Positions 28,314-61,600 are shown, counted from the first letter of the stretch. The stretch: DNA of 64,000 nucleotides from Trypanosoma brucei (GCA_000002445.1 CH464491.1:544001-608000); one strand, 5' to 3'. Translations and numbers: made by a program. Notes: generated by a model not told the origin, from the sequence alone.

Positions 28314-29288
28314 ATGCCATCCGTTTCCCAGGAGAAACGTGACTATGAGGATCGCCTCAACGGCTGCCTCACGAAGTACAGCCGTGTGCTCTTCTGCCTG
28401 ATGGACAATGTTCGCTCGCAGCAGGTGCACGGTGTACGCCGTGATCTCCGCGGTAAGGGTGAGCTGGTGATGGGAAAGAAGACGTTGCAGAAGAAGATCG
28501 TGGAGAAGCGCGCTGAGGGCAACAAGGCCACAGATGCTGATAAGCTGTTCCACCAGGTTTGCACCGATAAGCAGCTTCTGTGTGGCAACACATCGATGAT
28601 ATTCACGAACAGCGAAGTGTCTGATATCACCAGCGTGTTGGACAGCCACCGTGTTCAGGCGCCTGCGCGTGTTGGTGCCATTGCCCCATGTGATGTTATT
28701 GTGCCCGCCGGTAACACGGGTATGGAGCCGAAGGCAACGGCGTTCTTCCAAGCGTTGAACATCGCGACGAAGATTTCCAAGGGTACTGTGGAGATTGTGA
28801 GCGACAAGAAGGTACTGAGCACTGGTGACAAGGTGGATAACTCCACGGCGACGCTGCTGCAGAAGCTCGACATCTCACCTTTCTATTACCAGGTCGAGGT
28901 GCAATCCGTGTGGGACCGCGGTGTGCTGTTTACCCGTGAAGATCTCTCCGTCACCGATGCGGTTGTGGAGAAGTACCTCCTCGAAGGAATCAGCAACATC
29001 AGCGCTATGTCACTGGGTGCTGGTATCCCAACTGCCGCTACACTGCCGCACATGATTGTCGACGCCTTCAAGACTCTTCTCGGCGCCTCCGTTGCCACGA
29101 ATTACGAGTTTGAGGAATACGACGGAAAGAACCTGCGCACAGCCGCCTTGGAGGGTAAACTCGGTGGTGGCGAAGCTGCTGCCCCCGCCGCTGCCGCTGC
29201 TGCCGCCGCCCCCGCCGCCGCTCCCGCTGCCGCCGCAGCTGAGGAGGAGGAGGATGATGATGACTTTGGCATGGGTGCTCTCTTCTAA
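28314..29288 (+). CDS. RPLP0: 60S acidic ribosomal protein P0 (copy 2, identical CDS)
   Basis: Its translation is identical to copy 1. All overlapping spurious ORFs in the other frames are also identical, which implies nucleotide identity. Stop codon is TAA. Confidence 0.95.
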
Positions 29289-33542: not shown

Positions 33543-34475
33543 GTTGTGTATGAGGGTGCGTCAAGATGTTGCGGTATTAATTGACGGTACCATCTGAATG
33601 TGTTTTGGGCTGCTTCTAAATTTGTCCTTGTTTACGGCTTCTCTGCCATCTCCCCCCCTCAAGGCGGTTCCCCCTTTCCGTATTTCTCATGTGTTGCTCG
33701 TCCCTTTCCTTCCCTGGAGCTATTGGATACCGGTGGAAGGGTTGTTGTGGGGTTGCAGGTGTGTTTCCGTTGGTCATGCAAGGGAAGGGTGAGGAAAAGA
33801 GAGGATAGGAGAGCGGTGGAAGTGAATTGCAATGGTGCCACGTTTGCACTTTTTTGCGCTCTCTTAACATTTTTTTTGTTGATCCTTAGTTCGTTTCTTT
33901 TTTTTTTTTTCGTGCCTACGTCGTGTTAGTGATCGCCACCGCACACCAACTTAGTGTCCCAAATGATACTTCATGGAGGCGGGACGAGTGCCTCGTTCCC
34001 TCCCGTTGCATTTGTGTGATTTTTTCTTCGTGGTAGTTCGCGGGTGTTGAAAACATGTGGAGTGGGGGTGTATATGGAGAAGCTGGTGGGTAACGCAACT
34101 GTTCTGGTGAAAAATTGGTAAAAAGAAGCAAAAGAAGGTTCTGTTTGGGCAATGGCTGTAGAATGTCAAGGATAAGTAAAACGTGCCGTGTGCTTGTGTG
34201 CATTGTAAAGGTTATCATTAAGTACCGTAAATGAGATGTTGGATGAGGGGATACTTCCTTGGCTATGTAGGGCTTCTCATTTTTCTCATTGTTCATTTTT
34301 ATTGCATCAATGACATGTGAATTTTCAACTTTTTTGTGCGCCTTTTGACAACTATAAGGAAGGGAGGGGTGAAGCTACACACAGGTCGCACACAGCGACG
34401 CGTGCCGACTGCTGGCGCGTTCCGGAGGAACGCAGCGAAGAATCGAATAGGGAAAAAGAAGGATCAACTTTTTAC

Positions 34476-36380
34476 ATGTTTCAAATTGATGTCACCGACG
34501 TTTATTCCGCTCAAACGGAAACAGAGATAGCAAGGCTGTTTGCTTTAGCTGCAAACAGCGATTTCCCCTCCGAGACTCCCACCATCGAAGTGCGTTTACT
34601 GCTGCAAACAGAGAAGGATGGTTCTCAACCGACAGGTGATGTATGGACCCGGCAGGAGCGTGACACGCTGCTACTGTGTTTGGATCGCTCCGTCTCGCGT
34701 GTTTACCCTCCGCTCGACCCACTACAGTACACGCAACCACCACCGGAACTGGAGGTGCGTAACGGGAAACGGGTGGCGCGTATATACGTTACACCAACAG
34801 TCCGTTTGTTTTCCTTTCATTCAACTCCACACTGTGTTGAGGGACGCATGGGTACAGCAAATGGGACTCCTCCTAGTTTACTCACTCCCTTCGCTGAAGG
34901 TGAAGGTGTTAAAGCGAGCGGGGAATTCGAAGACTTTGCCGTTTCTCGGAGTCGGTGGAGGGTTGCTGCGTGGCTGACTGCCCGATTGTTCAATGAGAGT
35001 AGTTGGGTTTCTACCTGTCCCTGTGGTGGACTAAACAATGGGGATGGCACTGTCGCCGTACCTGCTGAGAGGTGTAGTGACGTTATTGATGCTGCAGAGT
35101 GTGACGGGCAAAAGCGGTTGCTTCATGTGGATGTGGCAGGGATGGAGTTCGTTGGGCTCATCACAGCTGTTACGTCACGGTATGCATACGTGGCTGTACC
35201 ACATGAAGAGGAAGGCCAACTGGCTACTAAGTGGGTCCTTGTCAGCCGTGTTAGCGTACCGCCCGCGCTGGAACGCATTGTGGGAAGAGAAACTGTGAAG
35301 AGGCCGAGGGAGGACAGTGAAAGGTCCCGGAGAGAAGAATTTGTGTATGAAAGGGAAGTTATATCTCATGACAACACCCCTTTCAGAGTGCTGCGTGTGG
35401 AGGAGCGTTTGTTGGTCACGCTGCGTGCGCACAAAGTGTATTGCACAAAGCAAAGGCCGGTGTTAGGTCTTCCTAGGGCGGTTTCCGTCTTATTTGAAGA
35501 CGTGGCTGTGGTGAAGAAGGTGGCTGACAGTCTCACTGATGGCGGTGACAGTACCAAAGTTATTCACAAATCATGTTGTAATTCATTTGCGGACGTCCTT
35601 GAAATTGTGAGGGGAAGCTGCAAGCGTTTTCTGCGGGGTTATACCAAATATAAGTTAAACACCAACGGACCTGCGGTCGAGCGCTTATTTAGCGCCCTGA
35701 CCGATACCGTCTCGGTGCAGTCTGTCTGTCACGGTGCGGGGACCCGGCGGCGGCGGCAGCGGCCACCCGTCACTGTCTCGTCTCCACGGGACATCTCTTC
35801 GCTTTATGAGGGAACTTGTGTTGAGTTCAAGGCGAAGGCGAACAAATGGGAGGCCAACTCTATTGAGGATTTCGTTGAGACGGATGTCTTTGGTGATGCG
35901 AGCGCAAGTGCCGGCGGTAATTACCGAAGCACTTCGAGGAAAACGGGCTGCATGAATATGGAGCGTATTCGGCACACCATTGCTGCCATGGCGAGCACGC
36001 TGGGCGGTGTCCTCCTTGTGGGTGTAAGCGACGACGGTAAGGTGTTGGGCCACAGTCCCGATGCGCTGAAGGAACTTCGACTGACTGGCTTCTGCCCAGC
36101 AATGCCGAAGGGCACGGTACAATGTACAACGATGCGAGCTGTGTCGGAAGATGCCCCAGTGACGTTACCAAAGGAATGGTGGAAGAATAAGACTCAGAAT
36201 ATTGGGCAGCGGGTTAATCAGCAGACCAATCTTGTGGTAACAGTGATCACGGTTTCCAGAGGACCAGCCCCAGTCTATACCGTGGCGCGCCACTCTGTGC
36301 CATACATCCGCGGGTTTGCCAGCACCCTCCCACTACATGTCATTTCCGTTACGCGACGTATAACTCCTCTACTGCCATAA
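34476..36380 (+). CDS. Hypothetical protein with C-terminal Schlafen/AlbA_2-like domain
   Basis: CVEFKAKANKW ... IRHTIAAMASTLGGVLLVGVSDDGKVLGHSP matches the AlbA_2 (PF04326, divergent AAA/Schlafen) consensus E..EFK ... iaAfaNt.GG.lliGV.DdG.v.G. Track start 34317 is GTG; the first ATG is at 34476. Confidence 0.55.
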   Translation: MFQIDVTDVYSAQTETEIARLFALAANSDFPSETPTIEVRLLLQTEKDGSQPTGDVWTRQERDTLLLCLDRSVSRVYPPLDPLQYTQPPPELEVRNGKRVARIYVTPTVRLFSFHSTPHCVEGRMGTANGTPPSLLTPFAEGEGVKASGEFEDFAVSRSRWRVAAWLTARLFNESSWVSTCPCGGLNNGDGTVAVPAERCSDVIDAAECDGQKRLLHVDVAGMEFVGLITAVTSRYAYVAVPHEEEGQLATKWVLVSRVSVPPALERIVGRETVKRPREDSERSRREEFVYEREVISHDNTPFRVLRVEERLLVTLRAHKVYCTKQRPVLGLPRAVSVLFEDVAVVKKVADSLTDGGDSTKVIHKSCCNSFADVLEIVRGSCKRFLRGYTKYKLNTNGPAVERLFSALTDTVSVQSVCHGAGTRRRRQRPPVTVSSPRDISSLYEGTCVEFKAKANKWEANSIEDFVETDVFGDASASAGGNYRSTSRKTGCMNMERIRHTIAAMASTLGGVLLVGVSDDGKVLGHSPDALKELRLTGFCPAMPKGTVQCTTMRAVSEDAPVTLPKEWWKNKTQNIGQRVNQQTNLVVTVITVSRGPAPVYTVARHSVPYIRGFASTLPLHVISVTRRITPLLP

Positions 36381-42457: not shown

Positions 42458-43226
42458 CCGCTAACAGCGGAGTGGCGCAGGACTGGAGGGAGAAAGAAAA
42501 GGTAAAGGGATGTGTATGGATAGGAGAAAACAAGGAAAGAGAATGAAACGTTGCAAAGGTGGTTTGCCACACAGATCGTTGGGTCGGGGCCTCTAGGTAC
42601 TAGTTGTGAGGTGTAACTCGTCGTGCTAAAGGTAATGTCCATATGAGATCACAAGACTTTTTTTGAGCGCGCAGAAGAAAAACCAGAAGGTGGTTTCAGG
42701 ATTTTCACCAAGAGTTGAGGTGCATCTCCCGCTTAGTCATTACATCGAAGGGAGGGCTGCTGTGCACTGAGCACTGACAAAAGGCTGTCAAACGAATTTG
42801 AGCTGTCACCACTTAGCATGTGTAGGCATACAGTTGAGCAGACATGCGTCAGCGTCAATGCGTTCTTATGTGTAAATTTCCTTTTGTTGCTACCTCCCAT
42901 TAACTACCCACGGTGTACTTTGAGTGACGCAAATCTCAGGAAGTCTGCACTCCTCTCTATTTGTCGATTCTTACCTTTGTTCCTCACACGAATGGGATTC
43001 TCATTTCCCCTGTAGCACGGGATTCAAGTTAAATTGCATTGTTCGACAGATGCAGCGGTACTATTCTCGTTTAATTTTCTTTTCTATTTTTCTTTTATCT
43101 CACCCCTTTCCCTACTCTTTCTGACACACACTTATACATATATATTCACGCAGTCGTTTCGGGATACCACAGACTGTGTGCAAACAAGTCTCCTTATTGG
43201 GGCGAATATAGATAGATCAGTGGGCG

Positions 43227-46200
43227 ATGAGCGACTCCATGGGTGAGGGACAGGACCTTGTTCCTATGACCCTTCCGGTGCCGGAGGTTATGCACGTCTC
43301 TGAACTTGATGTTACGGGACCGCTGCAACCTGGTGATGACTGCGCACAGAAGTCGCTCTCGGGTAATCTTCCGGATAAATGCATGTCTGTTTCATTTGCC
43401 AAAAGCTTGAGCGGCGTAGACCTCAGCATTTTGACACGTTCGGCGGGAAATGCGTCTCACACCTCTATCCGAAGTGGCAGTCGTGCGAGGGGGGGCAATA
43501 CAGAATCTTACGAACTCGCTGCTGTCATGGTTAGATCGTACCCACTCATGACCGTTGAGGGAACGGCGTTTTTAAACACAACACGGCCTCCAAGCTCGCT
43601 GGGGGGAACAGAGCCATCCGTGAGTCTTCGGCAAGATGCAGGCAGTCCCTCTGGGGTTGCTACCGACGATGAACCTCTGGGGGAGAGTTGCGTAAACTTG
43701 GCTGAAAGTGGTGAGCACAGTCGGACGTCCGCCAATGTGATGGCAATCGCCACTAGTCTCAAGCGTGCTTGCATGTGGCAGGTCATAATTACAAACTTTT
43801 TAGCGCACCGCGCGTGGATGGAAGCATTTCGCCGAAACAAACTGAGATCAGTTCTTGAGGTGCACCTTCTTCCCGTGATTCTCCGGAGACGTGGTAGAAT
43901 GAATTTGTCAGGACGGTTTACGCGGAGGGTCTGTGTTCAAAAGCCTGAGCTAGTGAGTAGAGATTCGACTGATTTATTGCAAGGCACGTACCTCTACGAC
44001 ACCGTGCCCATCCTAAAGACCTTGAGAAACGTAAAGTTCTGTGAAGCACTTACGGAGACTGTTTTGAAATACCGCTACAGCTGCGGCCAAGCAATAGCAA
44101 GCAGCGGGAATCCGGAGCAGAACGCTTTATATATTCTCGTCTCCGGCAAGTGCGATGCCATCACCCCAGCATCGGAGACAGGTGGAAAGGTGCGACGCCG
44201 ACGTCTCCAACCAGGTGAAACATTCGGTGGGCTATTTGGTGGTAAAGCGATATTCACAGATGTATATAGAGCCATATCTACCTGTGTGGTGTATGTTATT
44301 ACTAGAGAAAAGTTTGAAGAGTTGTTTTCTCAGTACGCTGACAGCAGTATGAAGGAAACATTCCTTGGTGCGTTACGCGACCACGAGATGGTGCGCCTAA
44401 AAAGGTTACACCCTCTACCCCAGTGCATAGCGCGCGTTCCCATATACCGTAAAAGTGAGCAGCTTGCAGGACAGGTCAACGAATACATTAAGGGGTTCAC
44501 ACCATTGGTGCTTTTACAAGGAGATGTGCTCTTTGAGCAGGGAGATCCTCCCGGCGATGTGTTTTGCCTCATTGAGGGGTATGTCCTGCGCGAGCAACTT
44601 GGTCCAGACATGAAGTACGAAAGCGGCACTCGGCAGGTTCTGGCACCGAACGAGCCGAACAATAACTTCGCACTGAGCACGCGGTTCCTGCTATTGGGAG
44701 AGGAGCCGCACATATTGCCGGGTCCGCTGCGCTACCGCTGCACTGTTGCCAGTCGTGCTGCTCTCTTTTTCAAGATCAATAGCGACAGCTTTGTGAATAT
44801 GCTACTGGATGACGCTAGTCTACTCATTAGGCTTCGGCAAAAGTACAAGGAACAACTGCAGCAGTGGATGCGAATTGCTCCCGAGGCACTCAGGCAAGTT
44901 CCCATGTTGGGGGAGATGCCACGACAAAATCTTAATACCATCATTCACGCTGCGGAACCGCGTGTGCTCGAGCGGTACGTTGCTGTGTGTGAGCCAGCTC
45001 GCGTCATCCGGGAGATTTATGTGTTAACGAAGGGCGATGTACGGGACCCGCGTCAATTTGATCATGTGCCAACGCAACCCCCCTCATTACCTCCCACGGA
45101 AAGCGAGTCTGTAGAGGAAGAGGCCGCGGGGAAGCAGCGAAAGGAAAAGGTCACCAAACGTGTGCCCTCCCCACGTGAAAGAAACTCTAAGGCTCAGAAA
45201 ACGGCCCAGCAACCTGTATCGCCGCTGAAGGAAGGCCGTCCGCGGAAAGGAAACAGGTCTGTTGCATCACTCGTTTGCAAATACACCGACGATAATGCAG
45301 TTCAATGGAGTTTTGAAGAGAATACCGAACTGCTGAAGGCTACAATTTATCCCGATGAGCGGCAGGAAATAACACCGCCACTTCCATTAAACCCGGAGAG
45401 GAATATTATCTGCACCATCGGTGGCGGATGGGAAGGCCTTCTACTGGAGAAGTGGCCTACCGGTTGGGAGACGACGACAACGGTGGAACTCTGGGCCATA
45501 CCGACACTGGCCATAAGGACGGAGTTCAACACTTTCCCCAAGGCGGCTCAAAATTCTATTCTTCGTTGCATTGGTGAAGTGCAAATGCGGGAGCTCGATC
45601 TTCCCACCCCGCCGAAGGTGAAGCTTCCACCAATGAGCATCTACACCCCAATCGAAAAGCGGCTAACGAAACCCGGTTTGAATGTTGACAGGGCCCCCCT
45701 TCGTTCACCGCGTAATGTTGGAGGAAGTGGAGCCTCGCACGACCGCTCCACCGCCGGAACCACAAGCAAAATTGGGCGGCAGCAGGCTGATGCTGCAAAT
45801 TCACAATCCAGTTTTACGACGAGGTCGTCGTCATTTTTCTCCGTTGACATCAGCACCGTGAAGCCTCCGCCTTCTGCGCTGACATCCAACAGGGATCCCA
45901 AAACCATGTCACCTAAACCGGCTGCAGTAGACACAAAGGTCCCCACGGTTCCGAAGACCCGCAAACAATTGGCACAGGTAACCGCGGCTGAGTCGGCGCC
46001 TGTTGAACCTCGCAAATCCAAGGCAGTGCCGGCCTCGTTGCTGTTGTTCCAACGGTTTTCCAAGAAAGTGACTGAGGAACCCCCAAAGATCACACCGGAA
46101 CTGCGAGCCATGTATGCTGGAGAGAAACCACAAAAAGGAATTGTACGTGAGTCGCCTCTCATAGAAGCTGACAAGCGACGAAGTCATAGTTGTCTGCCGA

Positions 46201-46568
46201 CGCTGCCCATAACAGCTTCTGCATGGCCGGTGTTGGCTGGAAGGAGGAAGCGGTGGTTTCCGATGGTACCCACGTTTGCACCCCTTCCGGGAACCCTGGA
46301 CAACGCGAACAACAAGGTGGATCCGCCTCATTTGGTCCCTAACACCTCCCACATGGTTATGCGTGAGAAGGGTTATAGGGATGTGCTGCAGTCACAAGTT
46401 GTTTATTTTACTTCGCTAGCAAATAGCAAAGCCTGTGAGGACCCAACGTACCTCTCGGTCTCCCCATGTACAACTGCAAGGTCCCGTTCCTCTCGTCATG
46501 GTGGGTCCACAGCAGCTCACATTGGTGCGGTACTGCCAACGCCTGGCCGGCATGCATACAGCTCTTAG
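43227..46568 (+). CDS. Large protein with tandem cyclic-nucleotide-binding-like (cNMP) domains and S/P-rich C-terminal half
   Basis: Two or three cNMP-binding-like modules: LYILVSGKCDAI...LQPGETFGGLFGGKAIFTDVYRAISTCVVYVITREKFEEL; VLLQGDVLFEQGDPPGDVFCLIEGYVLRE...LLLGEE...RYRCTVASRAALFFKINSDSF. No kinase or other catalytic domain was detected. Confidence 0.6.
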   Translation: MSDSMGEGQDLVPMTLPVPEVMHVSELDVTGPLQPGDDCAQKSLSGNLPDKCMSVSFAKSLSGVDLSILTRSAGNASHTSIRSGSRARGGNTESYELAAVMVRSYPLMTVEGTAFLNTTRPPSSLGGTEPSVSLRQDAGSPSGVATDDEPLGESCVNLAESGEHSRTSANVMAIATSLKRACMWQVIITNFLAHRAWMEAFRRNKLRSVLEVHLLPVILRRRGRMNLSGRFTRRVCVQKPELVSRDSTDLLQGTYLYDTVPILKTLRNVKFCEALTETVLKYRYSCGQAIASSGNPEQNALYILVSGKCDAITPASETGGKVRRRRLQPGETFGGLFGGKAIFTDVYRAISTCVVYVITREKFEELFSQYADSSMKETFLGALRDHEMVRLKRLHPLPQCIARVPIYRKSEQLAGQVNEYIKGFTPLVLLQGDVLFEQGDPPGDVFCLIEGYVLREQLGPDMKYESGTRQVLAPNEPNNNFALSTRFLLLGEEPHILPGPLRYRCTVASRAALFFKINSDSFVNMLLDDASLLIRLRQKYKEQLQQWMRIAPEALRQVPMLGEMPRQNLNTIIHAAEPRVLERYVAVCEPARVIREIYVLTKGDVRDPRQFDHVPTQPPSLPPTESESVEEEAAGKQRKEKVTKRVPSPRERNSKAQKTAQQPVSPLKEGRPRKGNRSVASLVCKYTDDNAVQWSFEENTELLKATIYPDERQEITPPLPLNPERNIICTIGGGWEGLLLEKWPTGWETTTTVELWAIPTLAIRTEFNTFPKAAQNSILRCIGEVQMRELDLPTPPKVKLPPMSIYTPIEKRLTKPGLNVDRAPLRSPRNVGGSGASHDRSTAGTTSKIGRQQADAANSQSSFTTRSSSFFSVDISTVKPPPSALTSNRDPKTMSPKPAAVDTKVPTVPKTRKQLAQVTAAESAPVEPRKSKAVPASLLLFQRFSKKVTEEPPKITPELRAMYAGEKPQKGIVRESPLIEADKRRSHSCLPTLPITASAWPVLAGRRKRWFPMVPTFAPLPGTLDNANNKVDPPHLVPNTSHMVMREKGYRDVLQSQVVYFTSLANSKACEDPTYLSVSPCTTARSRSSRHGGSTAAHIGAVLPTPGRHAYSS

Positions 46569-47795: not shown

Positions 47796-49283
47796 ATGCA
47801 GGACCTCAACTGGGCCCTGGCGGAAAAGGGCACAAAGGTTGTGGAGGTTTCCCACGAGGCTGCACATGTCGCTAGTTCCGCCACGAATCTTCTTGTGGAC
47901 CGTGAAGAATTACTTTGGATAACGGGAGATGCTCCGCAGCACGTAACGCTGAGGTTAGCGAATCCCCATCCACCACTAAATTATGTTGGATGGCACGTTT
48001 GGCACGATTACGTCACCAACCCCAAAACTGTGGAGGTGGCGACGGGTGAGTCTCCTGATGAAATGGTGGCACAAATCGTGTGTCAGGCAGTTGCCGGGGC
48101 TGGCACGCAGATTTGGAAATTGCCAAGTCCCATCCCCGCCAATCACTTATATGTACGCATGAAGATAGTTGAAACCTTCGGGCCGGGGCCAACTTACTTG
48201 AATAATTTGGTACTCTTCGCTGATGACCCCGGAAGTCGATTCCGCATACTCCGCGGCGAAGAGAGGGATAAATCAATGGCCGATCCGAGAAACTTGTCTT
48301 CGGGTAAAATGAGCGTTCTCCTTCAAGAGTTAGGTCAGGACATACGATCATTACATCCCATCAAGACAGTAGCTTCAAAAAAAAACATGCTACTTTACGT
48401 TCCCAAGGAACCGGATGCCGTCATACGTCCCCAGGGGGAAGAGGATGTTACCTTTCAATCGTCGTCCCAACACGCGAATAATATAACACCGCGGTGCGGA
48501 ACAGATAGCGCGAGGCAGTGCCATCTAGACTCTGGAAGTGGTTTTCAAGCTTCCAGTGACTTTCCAGGTGGTTTCAACGAACGGTTGTGTGCACTAGAGC
48601 AGGCGGTCGCATCTCTAACTCAAACAATGAATCATCAGCGTGAGGATCTTACGATGATTAAACGCCTTCTGCTTCAACAGGCTACAGACAGGCGGCGGGA
48701 GATAGAACGCCAGGGTAACGGCCCAGGCATCGCGTTGCCGCAACATGGCACCCACCCTGTGTCTCACCATCAGGTTTGCGTGGACTTTCCTGAACGAGCC
48801 CTTCGCACATTTGTGGAGGAAGTCGTGAGGCCGAAGCTGCAAAAGCACTCTAGACGGACTGAGACTCAAACTATAGCAAAGCTCGATGAATTCTTAAAGG
48901 ACGTTATTGGGGAAATGACCCAAGTAGTGGATGAACGAGTTCGGTTCCACATTCAGCGGGCCTCGTGCAATAGCAGCGTCAGTACAGGGTTTCATGCCTC
49001 GTGCAGCGGTGGGAGCCTCCAACCGTGCTCACCACACCTGTCGGTCAGCGGCGTGAATGCCAGCAGACCATCAGTCATTGCGGATTCCTCTATTCCCCAA
49101 ACTAACGGGTTCCCACCGGGATCCTTTTCATCTTCGGTTCATGGGTATTCTGCTGCGGCTAGGCATAATTCACCTGCAACCTCTTGTCACGATCCTATCA
49201 GCGTACCCTCTACGGCCGTGCGTGATGTGTCGTTCGAAGTGGATATGACCAGCACAAGGAACACGACACCCAGACCACAGTAA
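47796..49283 (+). CDS. Hypothetical protein
   Basis: 495 aa ORF with an ATG start, a central coiled-coil segment and an S-rich C-terminus. Confidence 0.5.
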   Translation: MQDLNWALAEKGTKVVEVSHEAAHVASSATNLLVDREELLWITGDAPQHVTLRLANPHPPLNYVGWHVWHDYVTNPKTVEVATGESPDEMVAQIVCQAVAGAGTQIWKLPSPIPANHLYVRMKIVETFGPGPTYLNNLVLFADDPGSRFRILRGEERDKSMADPRNLSSGKMSVLLQELGQDIRSLHPIKTVASKKNMLLYVPKEPDAVIRPQGEEDVTFQSSSQHANNITPRCGTDSARQCHLDSGSGFQASSDFPGGFNERLCALEQAVASLTQTMNHQREDLTMIKRLLLQQATDRRREIERQGNGPGIALPQHGTHPVSHHQVCVDFPERALRTFVEEVVRPKLQKHSRRTETQTIAKLDEFLKDVIGEMTQVVDERVRFHIQRASCNSSVSTGFHASCSGGSLQPCSPHLSVSGVNASRPSVIADSSIPQTNGFPPGSFSSSVHGYSAAARHNSPATSCHDPISVPSTAVRDVSFEVDMTSTRNTTPRPQ

Positions 49284-51623: not shown

Positions 51624-52892
51624 ATGATGGAATTAATCGGCTGCCCTGCGGTTGCGGTGTTGACCTGTTTCTACTGGGTGGCTTCCCATTTGGTCCTTCT
51701 TCTTCGCGTTGCTTTGCCGCGCTTCAGCGTAATCGTGCGCTACGGTGGTCGCTGTGTTACGTCCGAGAGTATTTGCAGTGGCTTTGCCTCTTGGATTCAG
51801 TCATCTCGGGATTATGCAAAGCGCACAGTCGGCATGTGGAAGTCTGAGAGACTATCGCGGGCCGTCTTTCACTGTACTGCCATTCTTGAGGGTTCGATCT
51901 TGTGTCGTATACGAGTTAGCAGAAAGCTTAGCTTCTGCGCTTTTTATGTTGCAGGTATTGTTTCCATCGTTTTGATACTCATTCTGATGGATGGCGGCCA
52001 TTGTTCTCCCATTGTGGAGGGGATGACAGTATATTCTGACGGCCTCAATCACTCAGCTGTCGCCTTCCTGGTTTCTTATGCCGGTCGACCGCTGCTTGCT
52101 TTTCTCATGCACTGCACCGTCCGATTATTGGAGTGCCTTTTTTTGCATCGCTTCAGGGGCGGGTCCGATGACTGTGTGACTGGCTTCGCCGCCGTTGCTG
52201 GATGCTCTTTCTACGTATTTGCCTCGTGTTCCAGCGGCATTATTCTCCCCTGTACAGAACGGTCGCCACTAGTGATTGGTGGGCAGAGGGTTGTTAATGG
52301 TATGACGGAGGCATCACCTTTTTTCCCTACGTTCGCGTTGGCCGTGGATGCCTTATTTGTTCTGCATATGGTTTTTCAAGTAACACAGGTGTACCATCAC
52401 TGGGTCCTGGCGGAGCTTCGGAGAAAACCTGTCGGCACAAGTGTCCTTAAGGGGGAGCACTGTTCCGTTGGCAGATGCAAGACCACACCGAAGGGCGTGA
52501 GCGAGGAAGGGAGAATCGGCGACGGTTCAGCGGTGCTGTACCATTTTCCTCGTATCGCACTCTTTAAATATGTGCAGGAGCCGCACTACGCGTGCGAAGT
52601 CGCGATGTATGCCGTCAATGCAATCAGTATCTGCCTCATAGTTTACAATAGGTCATTGCCCTCCGGTGGCACTGGAAGGGAAATAGGGGATGAGTTTTCC
52701 GTAGGCAGTGAGGTGGTGCCGTTGTTGTGCGCGACGTGCTTACCGCCGCTAGGCGTGTTGTTTTTCTCGTTGTTTAATCTCGCCATTACCGCGCGTGAGC
52801 ACCGCCGGTTTTGGGAGTGTGTGAATGCTAGGCGAGGCGACGGGGAGCGGGAGCTAATCCCCAAATGGGATTTGTTCTATGGCGTGTGGTAA
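51624..52892 (+). CDS. 3-oxo-5-alpha-steroid 4-dehydrogenase family protein (polyprenol reductase / TECR-like), polytopic
   Basis: C-terminal FPRIALFKYVQEPHYACEVAMYAV matches the steroid-5-alpha-reductase C-terminal motif (...Y.yVrHPnY.gE...w.g). There are multiple TM segments and an N-terminal extension relative to canonical ~300 aa members. Confidence 0.5.
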   Translation: MMELIGCPAVAVLTCFYWVASHLVLLLRVALPRFSVIVRYGGRCVTSESICSGFASWIQSSRDYAKRTVGMWKSERLSRAVFHCTAILEGSILCRIRVSRKLSFCAFYVAGIVSIVLILILMDGGHCSPIVEGMTVYSDGLNHSAVAFLVSYAGRPLLAFLMHCTVRLLECLFLHRFRGGSDDCVTGFAAVAGCSFYVFASCSSGIILPCTERSPLVIGGQRVVNGMTEASPFFPTFALAVDALFVLHMVFQVTQVYHHWVLAELRRKPVGTSVLKGEHCSVGRCKTTPKGVSEEGRIGDGSAVLYHFPRIALFKYVQEPHYACEVAMYAVNAISICLIVYNRSLPSGGTGREIGDEFSVGSEVVPLLCATCLPPLGVLFFSLFNLAITAREHRRFWECVNARRGDGERELIPKWDLFYGVW

Positions 52893-53316: not shown

Positions 53317-55245
53317 ATGCCGTCTGCTAGTTCCGGCTACACCTTTGCGGACTTCTTGCGGCGGTTGGAGCGCAGTCCCGACTCCCACATGGCGCCCCTA
53401 TACCACGAGCATCGTGAGCTCTTTGTGCGGCGCCATGATATGTTTGCGCGGGTTATTAGCAGTGTCACATGGTCAAAAGGTGTCGCACTGGTTGCTGCCG
53501 CGGGGTACACACAAGCCGTCAACGTGACGATCTATAGGGCGCTGCTGGCACGTATGTTGTTACATAACCGGCACGTACGGCAGTGCGGCGCTGGCTCCGT
53601 TGTTCCGTGGTCGGCTGCGCTGCGCACTTACAGTGAGGCCATTGCCACGCACGGAAATGCTGTGCCAACCCGGATGACGCTATCGGCGCTGCGGCTCTGC
53701 ACGCCAGCACGTCAATGGGTTGCCGCCATATCGTTGTTAATGTTGAGTCAAGCGAACGACAAATTGACGCTCCCGATGTTAATTGATGCAGCGGGGTGCT
53801 GCGCCACACCAGCTGCGTGGGAAAAAGCGATGACATTACTCGGAAGATTTCACGCGCAGTCACTTCAGGTTCTTCCGGACTCTATACAAAGTCTTAGACC
53901 TGTTGGAACAAGCGCTTCAACCGTGGATGCGGCAGCCCACGCTCTGTTGCCCCGCAGCGAGGGTCCTACGCCGGAGCAGAAGCACATATTGACGGTTATC
54001 AACAAGGTCGTGTCAGCTGTGCCGTGGCAGGTGGCATTGTCAAATGAAATGTGCAGGTCTTATCTCACTCACCTTGTGGCAAGTACAACACTGCGACCAA
54101 CGGAGAAGACGGCTTCTCTCACAACTGCTGTGCAACAACTTCCGTGGGAAGCTTTTGTTACACTGATGAAGACAGTTACGGCGACTGTTCAGGAAGGGTC
54201 GCAGGGTGTCTTGGGATCTCGTTCGACTCCCCAACTCCCACCGCCTCAGGATGGAATGGAGCGAGGGGACGTTGCCAAATCCCTGTTGAGCAACAGCATT
54301 ATTAGGGAGGGTGTAAACCTGCTTCAGAGCGAACCAGAAACCGCTATTCCCTTCATCACAACTATTCTTCACAAGCTACCATCTGCAGAGGCTGCGGCAC
54401 TGTTCCTCAGTGAGGCAACCTCAGCCTACCGGAACAGTTCAAGCGCCGTTGTGGCCGCTGCCATTCGCCATCCTGTTGTTGTGGGAGCTTTGTTGAAAAG
54501 GTGCGCTGATAGTAACTCATGGTACCTCGCAGCATCAATATTTAAATCAACCTCACCGACAGCAATTCCTTGTGACGTGGCTAGCGACCTTGTAATCCAA
54601 ATGCGGAGGGCAAATCAGGCACCACTGGTGGTGGATGTTCTGCAAAAGTACATTGTGCCATCGAGGACCAAACTAACGGAAGAGGCGATTGAGGCAGCGC
54701 TATTGTGTGTGCTGGTGCACAATCGGGCACTCGCGAAAGCCTCAGCCGTCGTCGCCGGCACTTCCCCCGACAATCGCACTGGAAAACCTAACGGAATCGG
54801 TGTTGCCAATGGTGTGCATTGGATATCAGCACTTAGTTGGGCCACTGACCTTTTGGAGGAGGGTGTGGAGTCGAGAATACTTCAGACCGGAACAACCCCT
54901 TCGGTAGGTGGTGTAAATCATGAAGACCCCACAGTGTTACTGCGGAAAAAGACATTATCGCCACGCATCCTGAGCCTTCTCATTTACATATGCGTAAATG
55001 CTGGGAGTCCACGTGGGGGTCTGTTTGCGCTGGGATACGCACGCACCGTCAGCAAAACGGAGCTCGAACTCTCAGAAGAGATTACAGCACTGTTGTATTG
55101 CATGATGTACGACCGTCCTCGTGAAGCGGAGAGTATCATTCAACACGCTGTGAAGAAACACGGGGAGTACAAGGGGAAATACCTTGGTAGGTTACTGGTG
55201 GCTTCGCAAGAGGCAAAGGGGTCCGCGCTGAGGAATCAAACTTGA
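53317..55245 (+). CDS. Hypothetical protein (alpha-helical repeat-like)
   Basis: 642 aa ORF with an ATG start. Ala/Leu-rich helical composition. No confident domain match. Confidence 0.55.
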   Translation: MPSASSGYTFADFLRRLERSPDSHMAPLYHEHRELFVRRHDMFARVISSVTWSKGVALVAAAGYTQAVNVTIYRALLARMLLHNRHVRQCGAGSVVPWSAALRTYSEAIATHGNAVPTRMTLSALRLCTPARQWVAAISLLMLSQANDKLTLPMLIDAAGCCATPAAWEKAMTLLGRFHAQSLQVLPDSIQSLRPVGTSASTVDAAAHALLPRSEGPTPEQKHILTVINKVVSAVPWQVALSNEMCRSYLTHLVASTTLRPTEKTASLTTAVQQLPWEAFVTLMKTVTATVQEGSQGVLGSRSTPQLPPPQDGMERGDVAKSLLSNSIIREGVNLLQSEPETAIPFITTILHKLPSAEAAALFLSEATSAYRNSSSAVVAAAIRHPVVVGALLKRCADSNSWYLAASIFKSTSPTAIPCDVASDLVIQMRRANQAPLVVDVLQKYIVPSRTKLTEEAIEAALLCVLVHNRALAKASAVVAGTSPDNRTGKPNGIGVANGVHWISALSWATDLLEEGVESRILQTGTTPSVGGVNHEDPTVLLRKKTLSPRILSLLIYICVNAGSPRGGLFALGYARTVSKTELELSEEITALLYCMMYDRPREAESIIQHAVKKHGEYKGKYLGRLLVASQEAKGSALRNQT

Positions 55246-57710: not shown

Positions 57711-58696
57711 GGGGAGCGGTTCTTCCCATCTGTAGCATCAACTCTGATCTCCTCGTGCCTACATGAGTGCACTCGTATATGGCCCAGAGATAAAAGAGTT
57801 TCTGGGGAGTGATGGATAATGGAAGCAGGAGGTATTTCCTTGCAACTCTTTGTCTTTTCCGTTTTCTCCTTCCCTCCACAAAGTTCTCGCGTAGGTGTTG
57901 CTGCGCGTGAGTGCCACGCAGTACGCGTGCAATGGGGTAGGGTTTGCCTAGATGTGCGAATGCCAGTGTGCGATTGAGAGTTGCTTCGTTACCCCTGCCT
58001 CCGTTAGTTGATACTATTTGTGAACCAAGTTCATTTTCCTTTGGCCTATATTTCCATATTCTTGGTGAAGTTGTAGTGCCATTAGTTATCTATAGGAATC
58101 CGCGCATAACTCAGCTGCCGTTGCGCATTTTTTTGGGTTTAGCTTGTTGAGTGAACAAACTATTATCCCTCCGTGCCGCTACCAAATCCACAAGCGAAAG
58201 TGAGGCGCAGAAACTTGTGTTGAAATTGCTGCGTGACTTTTCTTGTTTTTCATTTTGTGCTAAAATATACACAGTAACGGCGCCAATGAGTTGAAGGTGA
58301 TTTAAGTTCGATCTGGATACTCTTGCTTGCAACTCTCGGAACTTTATATGACGGCAATTGTGTTCGTGTGCGCGATCAGGACATGAAAGTGTTCACATGG
58401 AAGCAAGGGTCACGCTACCAAATCATAATTAGTTAAGAGCACACCCTGAAACAAACAGCTATGAAGATAAAAATATATGTTTACGGTTAATATCTGGACT
58501 CACTCAGCGCATACACTGGCGTACCAACAGGTTGTACTTGGCATGCGCTTGATTTGACGTTTATTTGCACTTCCTCTTGTTGGGCGACGCTGCTCTTCAC
58601 CTTGCTACTGCATTTCTAGGTTGTTTTTAGTTCCGCCGGCTTTGTGTGGTTTCTGTTACATCGGTAGCCTTGCGTTCGTGCGGTTGGACGAGTGTG

Positions 58697-61600
58697 ATGG
58701 CTGGAACCCAGGCAGCAGTGGACTACACCAAAGTGTTGGTGAAGAATACAGTAAGGTTCATCCTCTTAGTTCTGTTTCTCATATCTCTCGTTGTCTCGTT
58801 ACTCCTATGCATGCTTGCTGACATCTTTCAAGCCTACGCCCCCGTCTTCCCATTGTGGCCAATGGTTTTTGCGAGCGTTGCGCTAAACGTTGCGTGTGCT
58901 GTTTCGACTTCGTTGTATCATCGAGTAACGTGCAAGGCTTCTCGTTCTTATAAGAGCTCCGGAAGCAACCATGCATATTTGGCAATGCAAGGTTTCGGGT
59001 ACGGTTTGCTTTTTATTTGTCCGGCGGTGCTGTTCTTATATATTGAACTTTTAGCTTCCCCTGTTGCCGTCTACCGCTACGGATTGATAACAGCACTGGG
59101 TGGTTCATGTGCCGTGGCAAATGGGCTATTGATCGCATCTTTGCGGTACTCCGAAAAGACTCAGCGGCGAGTGAAAGAAGGTGGACTTGGGGGAGGCGAG
59201 AGGCCACAGCGCGACTCCGGTCTGTGGAGGAGACGTTTGTTATTGCTTCCAGACGGCGAGACAGCCATTGTCGTTTTGCTTTGTATCATTGCTCTCACGT
59301 GTTCTATTATTGCGGAGTATTTTACGCACCTGCGCCGTGCGTTGACCATTGTGGGCATGTTGCTTCTCGTAGTTAGTGCGGCTATCACTCGTGTTGGCAC
59401 TGGGTATCGGTCTGCTACCGGCGAGCACCCCTTCTCGATCTCTAGGTGCAGCTTCAGAACGGGTATTGTTCAAGGGCTTGGTTGGTTTCTGGGTGGGGCA
59501 ACGTTGTGTTTCGATTTGGTTTTGTGTAATTCAGGTGCGGGCGCACCTCCGTCTTGGCATATCATCAGTGGGTTAAGTTCGATGGTGAGCGTTGCTGCAC
59601 TCCTGTTTGCAAGGTTTCACCGCTTCACAGAACCTACATTCAAACAAGGCTTGCAGTTGTCCAGTGATGGACCCTACGTAATGACAGCAACAAGTCTATT
59701 TCAACTTACTTTTGTGTGGTGTTTAACGTTACTACTATCTACGGAGTACTGCGAACTAGGTATGCAGTTGAGGCAGGGGCTGATTACGTGTCAAACCCTC
59801 ACAGCGGTATCCATGTTTGCCCTGCCTCTTTGCACTCACTTTCTTGGCCGTGTTGTGTTCGGCAAGGAGTACGGAATATGGATAAGTCTTGACTGCCGGT
59901 TAGAATTCGCAATCTTGCAGCGGTTGGCGTGGTTTTGCTACAGCATAGCCATTTTCTTCGCCGTACTTCACATGACGGAGTCCAACCACTTCAGGTTCGT
60001 TGTCATACAGGCCCTACTGGTCGGAGTTTCTCAATGCCTTGTACATGCGTCGCTTTGGGCATTCGGTGGGGGAACATTGGGGAGATATTCAAGCGATGTT
60101 GAAGATCAAGAGTCTTTATCACGTACTACTTCCACCAAATCCACTTCACAGGAGGAAGACTCAGAGGGGGAAGCCTCCGTATCTTATGAGGGCGGTCGCT
60201 CTGCTCTACCTCTAGTACTGAATGCAGAGATGGTCACCGCCATTGCGGTCTGCGTGTGCGGGATTGCTCTTCGGCTTGTTGCCGATGTGGAGTCCATGGA
60301 TGGCGCATTTGTCGGTGCTCTGTTGGGTGTTCCCCGGAAATCGCTTCTGAATCTTGCAAGGGTCATGGCCACTGTTGCGGTACCGCTTGCTCATATTTCA
60401 TCCAGGGACCGTGTTCCTTTGTGGCAGCCATTTGTTGGCTGTGGTGGTTATGTTTCTATGCAAGCGGTGGGGTGGTCCGTTTACGCGATCAATACGTTGA
60501 TTGAGGCCGCCAATTACTTTCATGAGGAACGCCGGAGTCTTGCGTCTCCGGTATTTGGAACTCAATCTATGCCATTGGAACACACAGTGGATGGTGTATG
60601 CGCTACCGTCCCGTTTATTTGCATATTCCTGGGCTCCTTATTTGAAACATGGGCCCAACAAAGCGAGAAAATTCATCAGCGGAAGATGCAACAGAAGATC
60701 GTGGAGCTTAACAGCTTACTACAGCATGTCATTGCCGATCCGGAGGATCGGGAGCGGACGAAGTCACTTTTGAAGGTTGTAATTGGCCCTCGGTGGAAAG
60801 ATTTGAGAAGTAGCGGAAGTTCCGACGAGGACGAACGCGCCGAGGAGGTGGAAACAAGAAAGGAGGGCATGAGAAATATCGTAGCCATTCTCTGCGTCTG
60901 TGTAATGATGTTGTTTGCGACTTCCGCGTTTTCAGCAACGCACCAACCCGCCTTTACACTTATATTCGGGATATCAGGTATGATGATGACGAGTGTATCG
61001 TGTTTTTCGCTGCAACTTTTTTACGGATCGATCGTGCACGGGGCCACCGGAACCTATTCGTACTTTATGCCATTTTCTGGTGGGCAAAAGTTTGTTGCAT
61101 TCCAGACTGCTGGGTGGTCTTGTTACGCGGCTGCACTATTGTTAATTCTAATAAGTTGTCTCGAAGGTCGCGGTTCGCCCACTGCCTTCGTTTGCATGGG
61201 TTTCTTTAGTGTCGCGGCACAGTTTTTGATTTTGAATTCTATTCCGCATTTTGATTCCACTCCGAGACCGGCTTCGTTGTTGGAACAAAATGCGGAAGCG
61301 GCGCTTGCCGTGTTTGCGCTCGTTGGTTCCTTTACTTTTGGTGTTGTATGGAACGCCTACACAGGCGGTGGCATTCCAGGGCAGGCGCCATCCCCGCTCC
61401 CCATTATTGTTACAGCTATTGCCGCATCGTGTGCTGCACCATTGGGAATCGTGTCTTTGAAGCGCCACATGGAGCGTTCCGCCATGTTCGCCGTCGCTGA
61501 TGGACTGGAAAGTTCCTCCGAGGCAAGTGACGGTGAAGAGGAAATACGCAGTGATGGCCACACGGATGCAATCGCCCATGTAAGTAATGGGAGTGGACAC

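What the first reader, a model, noticed from the sequence alone, without database searches (positions are those of the whole stretch)
43227..46568. Tandem cNMP-binding-like domains without a kinase or channel domain
Two, possibly three, cyclic-nucleotide-binding-like modules (with G-E-x-F-G-G-like phosphate-binding-cassette remnants: PGETFGGLFGG; and GDVLFEQGDPPGDVFCLIEGYVL) occur in the N-terminal half of a 1113 aa protein. Its C-terminal half is S/P/T-rich and basic. Trypanosomatid cAMP signalling is unconventional, PKA being cAMP-independent. The few cNMP-domain effector proteins known, the CARPs, are of high interest. This protein is a candidate non-kinase cyclic-nucleotide (or other ligand) sensor.
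Basis: partly seen in the sequence, partly recalled or inferred. Interest (0 to 1): 0.55.

Follow-up and report, generated by a model that had tools for sequence, protein, structure and literature searches.

The report
Annotated trypanosome flagellar triple-CNB protein
This is the already-annotated Trypanosoma brucei gene Tb927.11.2140, a flagellum-associated protein with three cyclic-nucleotide-binding-type folds and no enzyme or channel part; only the middle fold keeps the residues needed to grip a cyclic nucleotide, so it is an untested candidate sensor of a known kind, not a new system.

Summary
The ORF at 43227-46568 (+) encodes 1113 aa and scores 51 bits on Pfam PF00027 (cutoff 27.5). 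No kinase, channel, GEF or DNA-binding domain is detected. Its tail is basic and rich in S/T/P. The protein is identical to T. b. brucei TREU927 XP_828298.1, which is Tb927.11.2140 (UniProt Q386U5). [quoted passage not shown]

Profile and fold comparisons show two firm CNB modules, A (aa 254-395) and B (aa 396-548). A third, module C (aa 549-800), is split and degenerate. Modules A and C have lost both ligand-contact residues: Glu became Gly and Arg became Phe343 or Trp743. Only B keeps a Gly-Glu...Arg arrangement (G491-E492/E493...R502).

It is not one of CARP1-11. A published phosphoproteome shows T814 (K-R-L-T) rising about 4-fold after specific activation of PKA. Relatives occur across trypanosomatids and more distantly.

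Best reading: a non-catalytic axonemal scaffold or sensor with one possibly ligand-competent CNB, acting downstream of PKA. Ligand binding is untested. Interest is modest.

The parts
43070..43152 (+). Polypyrimidine tract followed by AG: the likely trans-splice acceptor region, about 75 nt upstream of the ATG.
   Evidence: Read directly from the sequence. There is no ATG between the AG and position 43227.
43227..46568 (+). [quoted passage not shown]
   Evidence: The ORF is listed. It is identical at 1113 of 1113 residues to TREU927 XP_828298.1 (P0011) and differs at 4 residues from the gambiense DAL972 entry. The gene ID is confirmed because the published peptide KLPPMSIYTPIEKRLTKPGLNVDRAPLRSPR equals aa 799-829.
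43503..43577 (+). Conserved N-terminal short motif (aa 93-117; consensus E..L.RAV.MV.TYP.M.V.GTAFEN) inside an otherwise variable, acidic, probably disordered region (aa 1-167).
   Evidence: 69% identity among Trypanosoma orthologues against 27-30% in the flanks. The motif is present in most of the 20 family members. AF2 pLDDT is below 50 for aa 1-182.
43728..43892 (+). Long basic amphipathic helix (aa 168-222; KRACMW..II...LAH..W...FR..RLR..LE..LLP.ILR+RG), pI 11.7.
   Evidence: AF2 predicts helix 168-220. Identity is 63% within Trypanosoma and 38% family-wide. The motif is conserved in all 20 members and in the distant members P0033 and P0035.
43986..44411 (+). CNB module A (aa 254-395): full CNB fold with a degenerate cassette.
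   Evidence: Pfam 40.8 bits when scanned alone. HHalign 99.6%, E=1.5e-24. AF2 pLDDT 62-86 with the beta-sandwich and helices.
44223..44255 (+). Cassette of module A (aa 333-343; F-G-G-L-F-G-G-K-A-I-F). The canonical Glu position is Gly335 and the canonical Arg position is Phe343.
   Evidence: HHalign and hmmalign agree. AF2 places beta7 at aa 346-349, so R348 is on the strand. Position 335 is never Glu and position 343 is always F, Y or H in the 20 members.
44412..44870 (+). CNB module B (aa 396-548): one of the two most conserved blocks of the protein.
   Evidence: HHalign 98.5%, E=3e-15. A profile search of the PDB hits only CNB proteins, best E=2.4e-4. Foldseek aligns A and B together to tandem CNBs over 270-310 columns. 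Identity is 73% within the genus and 47% family-wide.
44694..44732 (+). Cassette of module B (aa 490-502; L-G-E-E-P-H-I-L-P-G-P-L-R). It keeps Gly491, Glu492/Glu493 and Arg502.
   Evidence: It aligns without gaps to E. coli CRP I70-G71-E72...R82. The CRP sequence was verified as identical to PDB 1I5Z. BLASTP against P0067 puts E493 and R502 opposite that protein's FGE...R. Across the 20 members, E492 is Glu in 16, E493 in 17 and R502 is Arg in 17. The register is uncertain by one residue, and AF2 pLDDT is below 50 here.
44871..45062 (+). Module C, first half (aa 549-612): alphaA to about beta3/beta4 of a CNB fold.
   Evidence: HHalign of this piece alone gives 96.9%, E=1.5e-10. Module B against module C gives E=6e-4 over the same stretch.
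45063..45362 (+). Low-conservation, charged, hydrophilic insert (aa 613-712) that splits module C.
   Evidence: 33% identity within the genus and 19% family-wide. GRAVY is -1.22 for aa 611-715. AF2 pLDDT is 24-29.
45363..45626 (+). Module C, second half (aa 713-800), containing the Trp-rich motif GGGWEGLL.EKWP.GWETT.TVE.WA.P (aa 732-759; nt 45420-45503). This is the best-conserved block family-wide.
   Evidence: 71% identity within the genus and 52% family-wide. G733, E736, K742, W743, W747, E748, W756 and P759 are invariant in 20 members. It is colinear with CNB beta6 to alphaB in the whole-module alignment but not significant alone, E=0.029. The canonical Glu maps to Gly734 and the Arg to Trp743, based on hmmalign of three distant members.
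45621..45644 (+). K-L-P-P-M-S-x-Y motif (aa 799-806), almost invariant across the family; function unknown.
   Evidence: Alignment of 20 members.
45666..45668 (+). Codon of Thr814, in K-R-L-T: a PKA-type phosphosite that responds to the TbPKA activator.
   Evidence: Supplementary Data 1 of PMC6440977: marked significant, -log10 p = 3.84, log2 difference +1.97, site localisation probability 1. Numbering checked. Conserved in 5 of the 9 full-length Trypanosoma orthologues.
45627..46565 (+). Basic S/T/P-rich tail (aa 801-1113), mostly disordered, with three conserved islands: aa 941-975 (PELCAIYAG.EPQKGII), aa 999-1024 (WP....KKQWF.VVP.FAPLPGT) and aa 1025-1066 (a predicted helix).
   Evidence: pI 10.35 and 31.9% S+T+P. 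AF2 pLDDT is mostly below 50, with a helix at 1040-1069. The islands have 61-69% identity against 28-44% in the flanks; motif 2 has 47% family-wide.

Best explanation
Tb927.11.2140 is a non-catalytic, axoneme-associated protein. It is built from a basic helix, three CNB-type modules in a row, and a long disordered basic tail that carries short conserved docking motifs.

Shown here:
- Modules A and B have the CNB fold.
- Module C is a split, degenerate CNB-like module.
- A and C have lost both residues that hold the ribose and the cyclic phosphate (Glu to Gly; Arg to Phe343 or Trp743).
- B keeps a Gly-Glu...Arg arrangement.
- From published data, the protein is listed as axonemal/cytoplasmic, and Thr814 just after module C gains phosphate when TbPKA is switched on.

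Inferred:
- A and C act as CNB-homology modules, with structural, allosteric or partner-binding roles.
- B is the only pocket that could take a phosphate-bearing ligand such as cAMP or cGMP.
- Occupancy of B and phosphorylation at T814 together would change how module C and the tail motifs engage axonemal partners. The protein would then be a local integrator or adaptor in flagellar signalling rather than an enzyme.
For: Domain content:
- PF00027 scores 51 bits and no other domain is found.
- HHalign against 172 canonical CNB domains: A E=1.5e-24, B E=3e-15, C E=4e-9. Controls give E>=0.02.

Fold:
- Foldseek's top 50 are all tandem-CNB PKA-R or PKG structures.

Contact residues:
- Mapping for A and C comes, with AF2 strand positions.
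- Module B aligns without gaps to the CRP cassette and to the canonical cassette of P0067.
- The roles of the Glu and the Arg are as described in PMC10354285 and PMC10959531.

Conservation:
- It peaks in B and in the second half of C, and in tail motif 2.

Location and PKA response:
- Both come from Supplementary Data 1 of PMC6440977.

Precedent:
- Other trypanosome CNB proteins without catalytic domains are flagellar: CARP1 and CARP11, FLAM6 and pDAP1.
Against: - There are no binding data for any ligand.
- The cassette of module B contains three prolines (P494, P498, P500) and is modelled with pLDDT below 50. Its register is uncertain by one residue.
- The Glu and Arg of B are not universal. 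R502 is Pro in 3 of 20 members, including Leptomonas. E492 is replaced in 4 of 20.
- The gene is not among the hits of the genome-wide RNAi screens for resistance to raised cAMP.
- The best-conserved block is the degenerate half of module C, which points to partner binding rather than ligand sensing.
- T814 is missing in several Trypanosoma species and in all members outside the genus.
- The T814 response could be indirect. The study itself says PKA acts directly or indirectly.
- The second half of module C is not significantly CNB-like on its own, and AF2 did not fold it.
Confidence: 0.55

Rival explanations
1. Pure pseudo-receptor. None of the three modules binds a small molecule. The CNB folds serve only as a rigid scaffold or as protein-protein interfaces, as in channel CNB-homology domains whose pocket is filled by the protein's own residues. 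Regulation would come from phosphorylation alone.
For: - A and C lack both contact residues, and an aromatic residue sits at the Arg position.
- The cassette of B is proline-rich and poorly modelled.
- The Arg of B is lost in the Leptomonas-type members.
- The strongest conservation is in the degenerate half of C.
- The gene is absent from the CARP screens.
- Degenerate CNB domains already exist in trypanosome flagellar proteins, for example PGKL.
Against: - B keeps Gly-Glu and Arg at canonical spacing in 16-17 of 20 members.
- B is one of the two most constrained blocks.
- Deviant cassettes can still bind ligands: CARP11 binds despite its insertions, and TbPKAR binds nucleosides.
Confidence: 0.3
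2. Module B senses a non-cyclic ligand such as a purine nucleoside, as trypanosome PKA-R does, rather than cAMP or cGMP.
For: - Trypanosome PKA-R shows that CNB pockets in this lineage have changed ligand.
- TbPKAR and TcPKAR are among the structural matches.
- B has an extra acidic residue next to the conserved Glu (E492-E493).
Against: - In TbPKAR the switch depends on loss of the Arg and a Glu two residues after the conserved Glu (G-E-x-E). Putting an Arg back is enough to give a cyclic-nucleotide response.
- Module B keeps Arg502 and reads G-E-E-P, not G-E-x-E.
Confidence: 0.08
3. It is a divergent regulatory subunit that holds a kinase inactive through a pseudosubstrate upstream of module A, in the manner of PKA-R.
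For: - The best structural matches are PKA-R and PKG tandem CNBs.
- A basic cluster, L-R-R-R-G-R-M (aa 219-225), lies about 30 residues before module A.
Against: - The cluster is not a conserved R-R-x-S/A-hydrophobic site. It reads RKRGEKG in most trypanosomes and R-K-x-x-T-G-S elsewhere.
- No dimerisation/docking domain or LRR is detected.
- A and C cannot bind ligand in the canonical way.
Confidence: 0.03
4. It is one of the known CARPs, for example CARP8 (1108 aa, also on chromosome 11), or simply CARP1 under another name.
For: - Its size is close to CARP8, and both are on chromosome 11.
- Its three-CNB layout with a split third module resembles published CARP1.
Against: - The gene IDs differ: Tb927.11.2140 against Tb927.11.3910 (CARP8) and Tb927.11.16210 (CARP1).
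- CARP8 has no detectable domain.
- CARP1 is 705 aa, and its first CNB has a canonical cassette with R320.
Confidence: 0.01

Closest known systems
T. brucei CARP1 (Tb927.11.16210), cAMP response protein 1
   Same: Kinetoplastid, non-catalytic, with an N-terminal region of about 230-250 aa followed by three CNB-type modules. The third module is interrupted by an insert, only one module has an intact cassette, and localisation is predicted to be flagellar.
   Different: It is a different gene, 705 aa against 1113 aa. In CARP1 the intact cassette is in the first module (R320), whereas here it is the second. CARP1 binds cAMP (about 30 nM) and dominates the cAMP-resistance screen, while this gene is not a screen hit and has no binding data. 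This protein also has a 313-aa tail. A direct sequence comparison could not be made because the CARP1 sequence could not be obtained.
T. brucei CARP11 (Tb927.7.2320)
   Same: A non-catalytic CNB protein with long inserts inside the CNB fold.
   Different: CARP11 has a single CNB with a canonical Arg (R520), and it binds cAMP at about 300 nM.
PKA regulatory subunits and PKG tandem CNB-A/B, including the cAMP-independent TbPKAR and TcPKAR
   Same: These are the best structural matches for modules A and B as a tandem pair. Trypanosome PKA-R is also the precedent for altered cassettes in this lineage.
   Different: This protein has no inhibitor or pseudosubstrate site, no docking or LRR domain and no known kinase partner. 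Its cassette changes are different: Gly plus an aromatic residue in A and C, rather than Glu plus a polar residue as in TbPKAR.
FLAM6 and pDAP1 (Tb927.11.15730), axonemal CNB-domain proteins
   Same: Trypanosome axoneme-associated proteins with predicted CNB domains and no catalytic domain. They are implicated in control of flagellar beat.
   Different: They are different genes with different sizes. They have orthologues studied in Leishmania mexicana and a defined location at the proximal docking complex. No sub-axonemal location or phenotype is known for Tb927.11.2140, and it was not found in that paper's supplements.
CNB-homology domains of KCNH channels (hERG, EAG)
   Different: They are channel-attached, single domains. 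The idea that Phe343 or Trp743 fills the pocket here was not tested, because no model coordinates were available.
E. coli CRP cAMP-binding cassette
   Same: The cassette of module B aligns without gaps, matching G71-E72 and R82 at a spacing of 10. The best PDB sequence hits of module B are CRP/FNR regulators.
   Different: There is no helix-turn-helix domain. The overall alignment is weak (E=0.005). Ser83 of CRP corresponds to Tyr503. The cassette here is proline-rich.
Unnamed euglenozoan family of about 650-810 aa with three CNBs (P0067, P0087, P0106, and the Euglena transcript P0107)
   Same: A colinear BLASTP match through A, B and the first half of C (E=8e-14). The upstream helix (W-x-V...LL.P...RR) and the [RK]L[HY]PL linker are shared.
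   Different: These proteins are shorter, lack the long tail, and have a canonical first cassette (FGEFAL..EPR). Whether this is the CARP1 family is unknown.

Membership tests
CNB domain superfamily (Pfam PF00027 / SSF51206) | Profile match above the curated threshold. | tested here: met
   51 bits against a cutoff of 27.5. Module A alone scores 40.8 bits. HHalign gives A E=1.5e-24, B E=3e-15 and C E=4e-9, with clean controls.
CNB domain superfamily (Pfam PF00027 / SSF51206) | Eight-stranded beta-sandwich with flanking helices. | tested here: met
Ligand-competent (canonical) cNMP-binding CNB | Cassette Glu (ribose 2'-OH) and Arg (cyclic phosphate) present in module A. | tested here: not met
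   The Glu position is Gly335 and the Arg position is Phe343. The same holds in all 20 family members.
Ligand-competent (canonical) cNMP-binding CNB | Cassette Glu and Arg present in module B. | tested here: inconclusive
   G491-E492/E493...R502 fits the CRP spacing and the canonical cassette of P0067. However, hmmalign shifts the register by one residue, the cassette has three prolines, and pLDDT is below 50.
Ligand-competent (canonical) cNMP-binding CNB | Cassette Glu and Arg present in module C. | tested here: not met
   Gly734 and the invariant Trp743 occupy these positions in the only alignments obtained.
Ligand-competent (canonical) cNMP-binding CNB | Measured binding of cAMP or cGMP. 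| not testable with these tools
   No binding data were found for this gene in the papers or supplements searched.
CARP (cAMP response proteins of T. brucei) | Knock-down gives resistance to the PDE inhibitor NPD-001/CpdA, that is, the gene is listed as CARP1-11. | tested here: not met
   Tb927.11.2140 is absent from Table 1 of PMC10354285 and from its supplements.
PKA regulatory subunit | Inhibitor or pseudosubstrate site (R-R-x-S/A-hydrophobic) upstream of CNB-A. | tested here: not met
   The basic cluster at aa 219-225 is not conserved in that form.
PKA regulatory subunit | N-terminal dimerisation/docking domain, or an LRR in kinetoplastids. | tested here: not met
   No Pfam hit in aa 1-253. 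AF2 models aa 1-182 as disordered.
PKG / EPAC / CNG-HCN channels / CRP-FNR | An attached kinase, GEF, ion-channel or helix-turn-helix domain. | tested here: not met
   Only PF00027 is found, even at E<=10. A sequence search of the PDB gives no other domain.
Substrate of T. brucei PKA | Phosphosite in a K/R-x-x-S/T or K/R-x-S/T motif that rises on specific PKA activation. | tested here: met
   T814 in K-R-L-T, log2 +1.97, FDR<=0.05. Direct phosphorylation by PKAC has not been shown.

The most novel reading that the evidence does not exclude
Module B is a working receptor for cAMP or another phosphate-bearing nucleotide on the axoneme, and the same protein is a direct PKA substrate at T814. Tb927.11.2140 would then be the point where two separate trypanosome pathways meet: cAMP from flagellar cyclases, and the nucleoside-activated, cAMP-independent PKA. 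The two degenerate modules and the Trp-rich block would pass the combined signal to axonemal partners that control beating.
Probability: 0.15. Interest if true: 0.6.

Novelty: already known. Interest (0 to 1): 0.3.

Why it matters
Trypanosome cAMP signalling has few known effectors, because PKA in these parasites does not respond to cAMP. Every CNB-domain protein is therefore a candidate effector.

This one is already flagged in databases, so finding the domain adds nothing. What this analysis adds is narrower and testable:
- Of the three CNB-type modules, only the middle one could still hold a cyclic nucleotide.
- The best-conserved part is a degenerate Trp-rich half-module.
- The protein is axonemal and responds to PKA activation.

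This tells an experimenter which residues to mutate (R502, E492/E493, T814) and which fragment to express. It also warns against assuming that a Pfam CNB hit means cAMP binding.

Tried and rejected
1. CARP identity. CARP8 has a similar size and chromosome, but a different gene ID and no detectable domain. Rejected.

2. R348 (in YRAIS) as the cassette Arg of module A. This was my first reading of the alignment. HHalign, hmmalign and the AF2 strand positions put it on beta7 and put Phe343 at the Arg position. Rejected.

3. PKA-R-type pseudosubstrate at aa 219-225. Not conserved. Rejected.

4. Obtaining the TbCARP1 sequence for a direct comparison. All routes failed:
- The homologue search with the 20-sequence alignment returned only the same ten Trypanosoma proteins.
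- The search with P0067 and P0087 returned euglenid and unnamed sequences.
- The afdb50 fold library was not available.

5. Modelling. The full-length AF2 model was poor, with mean pLDDT 38.5. The crop of aa 240-810 improved A and B but did not fold module C.

6. Module C against the PDB by sequence profile. No meaningful hit. Module-against-module profile comparison within the ten Trypanosoma sequences was weak, E=0.09-0.13 for A against B and A against C.

7. Literature. No paper holds Tb927.11.2140 in its main text. Old-style IDs and the product name gave nothing. Jager 2014 and Subota 2014 are not held. The supplements of the TrypTag paper, Bachmaier 2023, the axoneme-asymmetry paper and the eLife 2024 paper have no entry for the gene.

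8. Genomic neighbours. They are unrelated housekeeping genes in one polycistron and give no functional clue.


Full report
**What is there**

A strong polypyrimidine tract at about 43070-43135 is followed by an AG, and no ATG lies between that and position 43227. This fits a trans-spliced trypanosome mRNA that uses this start. Both quoted peptide strings are present, at aa 329-339 and aa 432-454.

The second half of the protein is basic and rich in S/T/P. The tail aa 801-1113 has pI 10.35 and 31.9% S+T+P.

**Identity**

The protein is identical at all 1113 residues to the T. b. brucei TREU927 entry XP_828298.1 (the same sequence is also found in T. equiperdum). It differs at four residues from the T. 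b. gambiense DAL972 entry. The window is therefore most likely TREU927 chromosome 11.

I first inferred the gene ID by counting from two neighbours with published IDs: choline kinase Tb927.11.2090 and the CBF/Mak21 protein Tb927.11.2120. I then confirmed it. Supplementary Data 1 of Bachmaier et al. [quoted passage not shown] Its peptide window, KLPPMSIYTPIEKRLTKPGLNVDRAPLRSPR, is aa 799-829 of this ORF.

**Is it more than chance, and how many modules are there?**

PF00027 scores 51 bits against a cutoff of 27.5 (E=1.5e-13) in two stretches, and no other family is found even at E<=10. Scanning the protein in pieces gives the following:
- aa 254-391 passes alone, at 40.8 bits over the full model.
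- aa 392-548 matches only the start of the model, at 19 bits.
- aa 549-808 and the tail give nothing.

I compared it with 20-sequence family profiles of each module:

| Module | Residues | HHalign probability | E-value | Aligned columns |
|---|---|---|---|---|
| A | aa 250-395 | 99.6% | 1.5e-24 | 124 |
| B | aa 396-548 | 98.5% | 3e-15 | 128 |
| C (insert removed) | aa 549-800 | 96.0% | 4e-9 | 120 |

Reversed modules, column-shuffled modules, the N-terminus, the insert and the tail all give E=0.02-0.65.

There is a caveat for module C. Its signal comes from its first half: aa 549-612 alone gives E=1.5e-10. The second half, aa 713-800, aligns in the right order but is not significant alone (E=0.029).

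**Fold**

The full-length AlphaFold model is poor, with mean pLDDT 38.5, because most of the protein is predicted to be disordered. A crop of aa 240-810 gives pLDDT 62-86 for module A and 33-73 for module B, with the expected strands and helices. Module C is not folded.

- Foldseek against the PDB: all top 50 hits are tandem-CNB proteins. They are PKA regulatory subunits, including the cAMP-independent T. brucei and T. cruzi ones, and PKG. E ranges from 1.7e-13 to 3e-9 over 270-380 columns, which covers A and B together.

**Ligand-contact residues**

The cassette Glu binds the ribose 2'-OH, and the Arg binds the cyclic phosphate (PMC10354285; PMC10959531).

- **Module A.** HHalign and hmmalign agree across the family that the Glu position is Gly335 and the Arg position is Phe343. 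Position 335 is never Glu, and position 343 is always F, Y or H in the 20 members. R348, which looks like the cassette Arg at first sight, lies on beta7, which AF2 places at aa 346-349.
- **Module C.** The only alignments obtained put Gly734 and the invariant Trp743 at these positions.
- **Module B.** L490-G-E-E-P-H-I-L-P-G-P-L-R502 aligns without gaps to E. coli CRP I70-G71-E72...R82. I verified the recalled CRP sequence as identical to PDB 1I5Z. BLASTP against a relative with canonical cassettes (P0067) puts E493 and R502 opposite its FGE...R.

Module B's case has limits. The register is uncertain by one residue, the cassette has three prolines, and it is modelled with pLDDT below 50. The residues are also not universal: R502 is Arg in 17 of 20 members, E492 is Glu in 16, and E493 is Glu in 17.

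**Family and conservation**

A single-sequence search found orthologues only in Trypanosoma. An exhaustive profile search found 78 proteins at E<=1e-3 and 21 at E<=1e-30. They include full-length relatives in Angomonas deanei and Leptomonas pyrrhocoris and several unnamed, more distant sequences.

Conservation by region:

| Region | Identity within Trypanosoma | Identity family-wide |
|---|---|---|
| Module B | 73% | 47% |
| Module C, second half | 71% | 52% |
| Module A | 57% | 32% |
| Insert | 33% | 19% |
| Most of the tail | 28-44% | not given here |

Module C's second half contains the Trp-rich motif GGGWEGLL.EKWP.GWETT.TVE.WA.P. Short conserved islands also exist:
- an N-terminal motif at aa 93-117;
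- the basic helix at aa 168-222;
- KLPPM[ST].Y at aa 799-806;
- three tail motifs.

**Published experimental context**

The same supplementary row lists the curated location 'axoneme, cytoplasm'. It also lists Thr814, with site localisation probability 1, as significantly up-regulated 15 min after treatment with 7-CN-7-C-Ino, a specific activator of trypanosome PKA (-log10 p = 3.84, log2 difference +1.97). The table holds only sites passing FDR<=0.05. T814 sits in K-R-L-T, a PKA-type motif, 14 residues after module C. It is conserved in 5 of the 9 full-length Trypanosoma orthologues and is absent outside the genus.

The gene is not one of CARP1-11. No paper in the library mentions its ID in the main text.

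**Interpretation**

The protein is a non-catalytic, axoneme-associated, multi-CNB scaffold or sensor. Modules A and C work, at most, like CNB-homology domains. Module B is the only pocket that could hold a phosphate-bearing ligand. The protein lies downstream of PKA. Which ligand binds, if any, is not known.

The main rival is that no module binds anything and the CNB folds are purely structural. This is favoured by the proline-rich B cassette, the loss of R502 in Leptomonas-type members, the absence from the cAMP-resistance screens, and the fact that the degenerate half of C is the most constrained block.

A nucleoside ligand as in TbPKAR is less likely, because B keeps its Arg and lacks the G-E-x-E arrangement. 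A PKA-R-like inhibitory role is rejected, because the upstream basic cluster is not a conserved pseudosubstrate.

**Comparison with known systems**

In layout it most resembles CARP1. Both have a long N-terminal region followed by three CNB modules, with the third split by an insert and only one intact cassette. It is nevertheless a different gene. The intact cassette is in a different module, it carries a long extra tail, and it has no binding or screen evidence.

A shorter euglenozoan family (P0067, P0087, P0106, P0107) shares the helix, the linker and the colinear A-B-C arrangement. I could not establish whether that family is CARP1.

**Verdict**

The new increment is the residue-level picture (one possibly competent module and two degenerate ones) and the link to published data on axonemal location and PKA response. 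Interest is modest.

Noticed in passing
window 27082-28056 and 28314-29288 (+): Two tandem ORFs of 324 aa encode 100% identical ribosomal stalk protein P0 (Ribosomal_L10, RL10P_insert and 60s acidic domains). This is a perfect tandem gene duplication.
   Followed up: partly
aa 202 of the ORF (window 43830-43832): Arg202 in the basic helix is invariant in the 20 aligned family members, yet it is Cys in the T. b. gambiense DAL972 and T. b. equiperdum entries. This is a subspecies polymorphism at an otherwise fixed position.
   Followed up: no
P0010 (T. vivax orthologue, 638 aa): The T. vivax entry follows the family up to about aa 570 of the query. It then diverges into unrelated sequence and stops. 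This looks like a frameshift or assembly error rather than a truly truncated gene.
   Followed up: no
window 45621-45644 (aa 799-806): K-L-P-P-M-[ST]-x-Y, directly after module C, is almost invariant in all 20 family members, including the most distant ones. No known motif or function could be assigned.
   Followed up: partly
P0058 (998 aa), P0034 (532 aa) and P0032 (1437 aa): Some distant hits match only the Trp-rich second half of module C and the region after it, without modules A and B in front. In P0058 the match starts at residue 160. Either this half-module is an independent evolutionary unit, or these are partial gene models.
   Followed up: no
P0067, P0087, P0106, P0107: A shorter euglenozoan family of three-CNB proteins (about 650-810 aa for the full-length members). 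It shares the upstream helix and the [RK]L[HY]PL linker with Tb927.11.2140 but has a canonical first cassette (FGEFAL..EPR). The cassette Arg positions in P0067 (310 and 470) are close to those published for TbCARP1 (R320, R458/K459). It may be the CARP1 family, but this was not tested.
   Followed up: partly
Module A, beta4-beta5 loop (aa ~313-322) in alignment A5: Family members outside Trypanosoma carry variable inserts of up to about 40 residues at this loop. Module C has its roughly 100-aa insert at what may be the equivalent loop, and published CARP1 has a split third CNB.
   Followed up: no
window 45641-46174 (-): A 177-aa antisense ORF with a TTG start lies inside the gene. It is probably a by-product of the composition of the S/T/P-rich tail and not a gene.
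   Followed up: no
window 47796-49283, 51624-52892 and 53317-55245 (+): The three ORFs downstream have no Pfam domain. By counting gene IDs, the second would be Tb927.11.2160. That mRNA is reported to bind ZC3H11 and to rise on ZC3H11 RNAi. The assignment is by inference only.
   Followed up: no
window 58646-63271 (+) and 34317-36380 (+): A 1541-aa protein has a diacylglycerol acyltransferase domain only in its last 250 residues. A 687-aa protein has a C-terminal Schlafen AlbA_2 domain. Both have large unannotated N-terminal parts.
   Followed up: no
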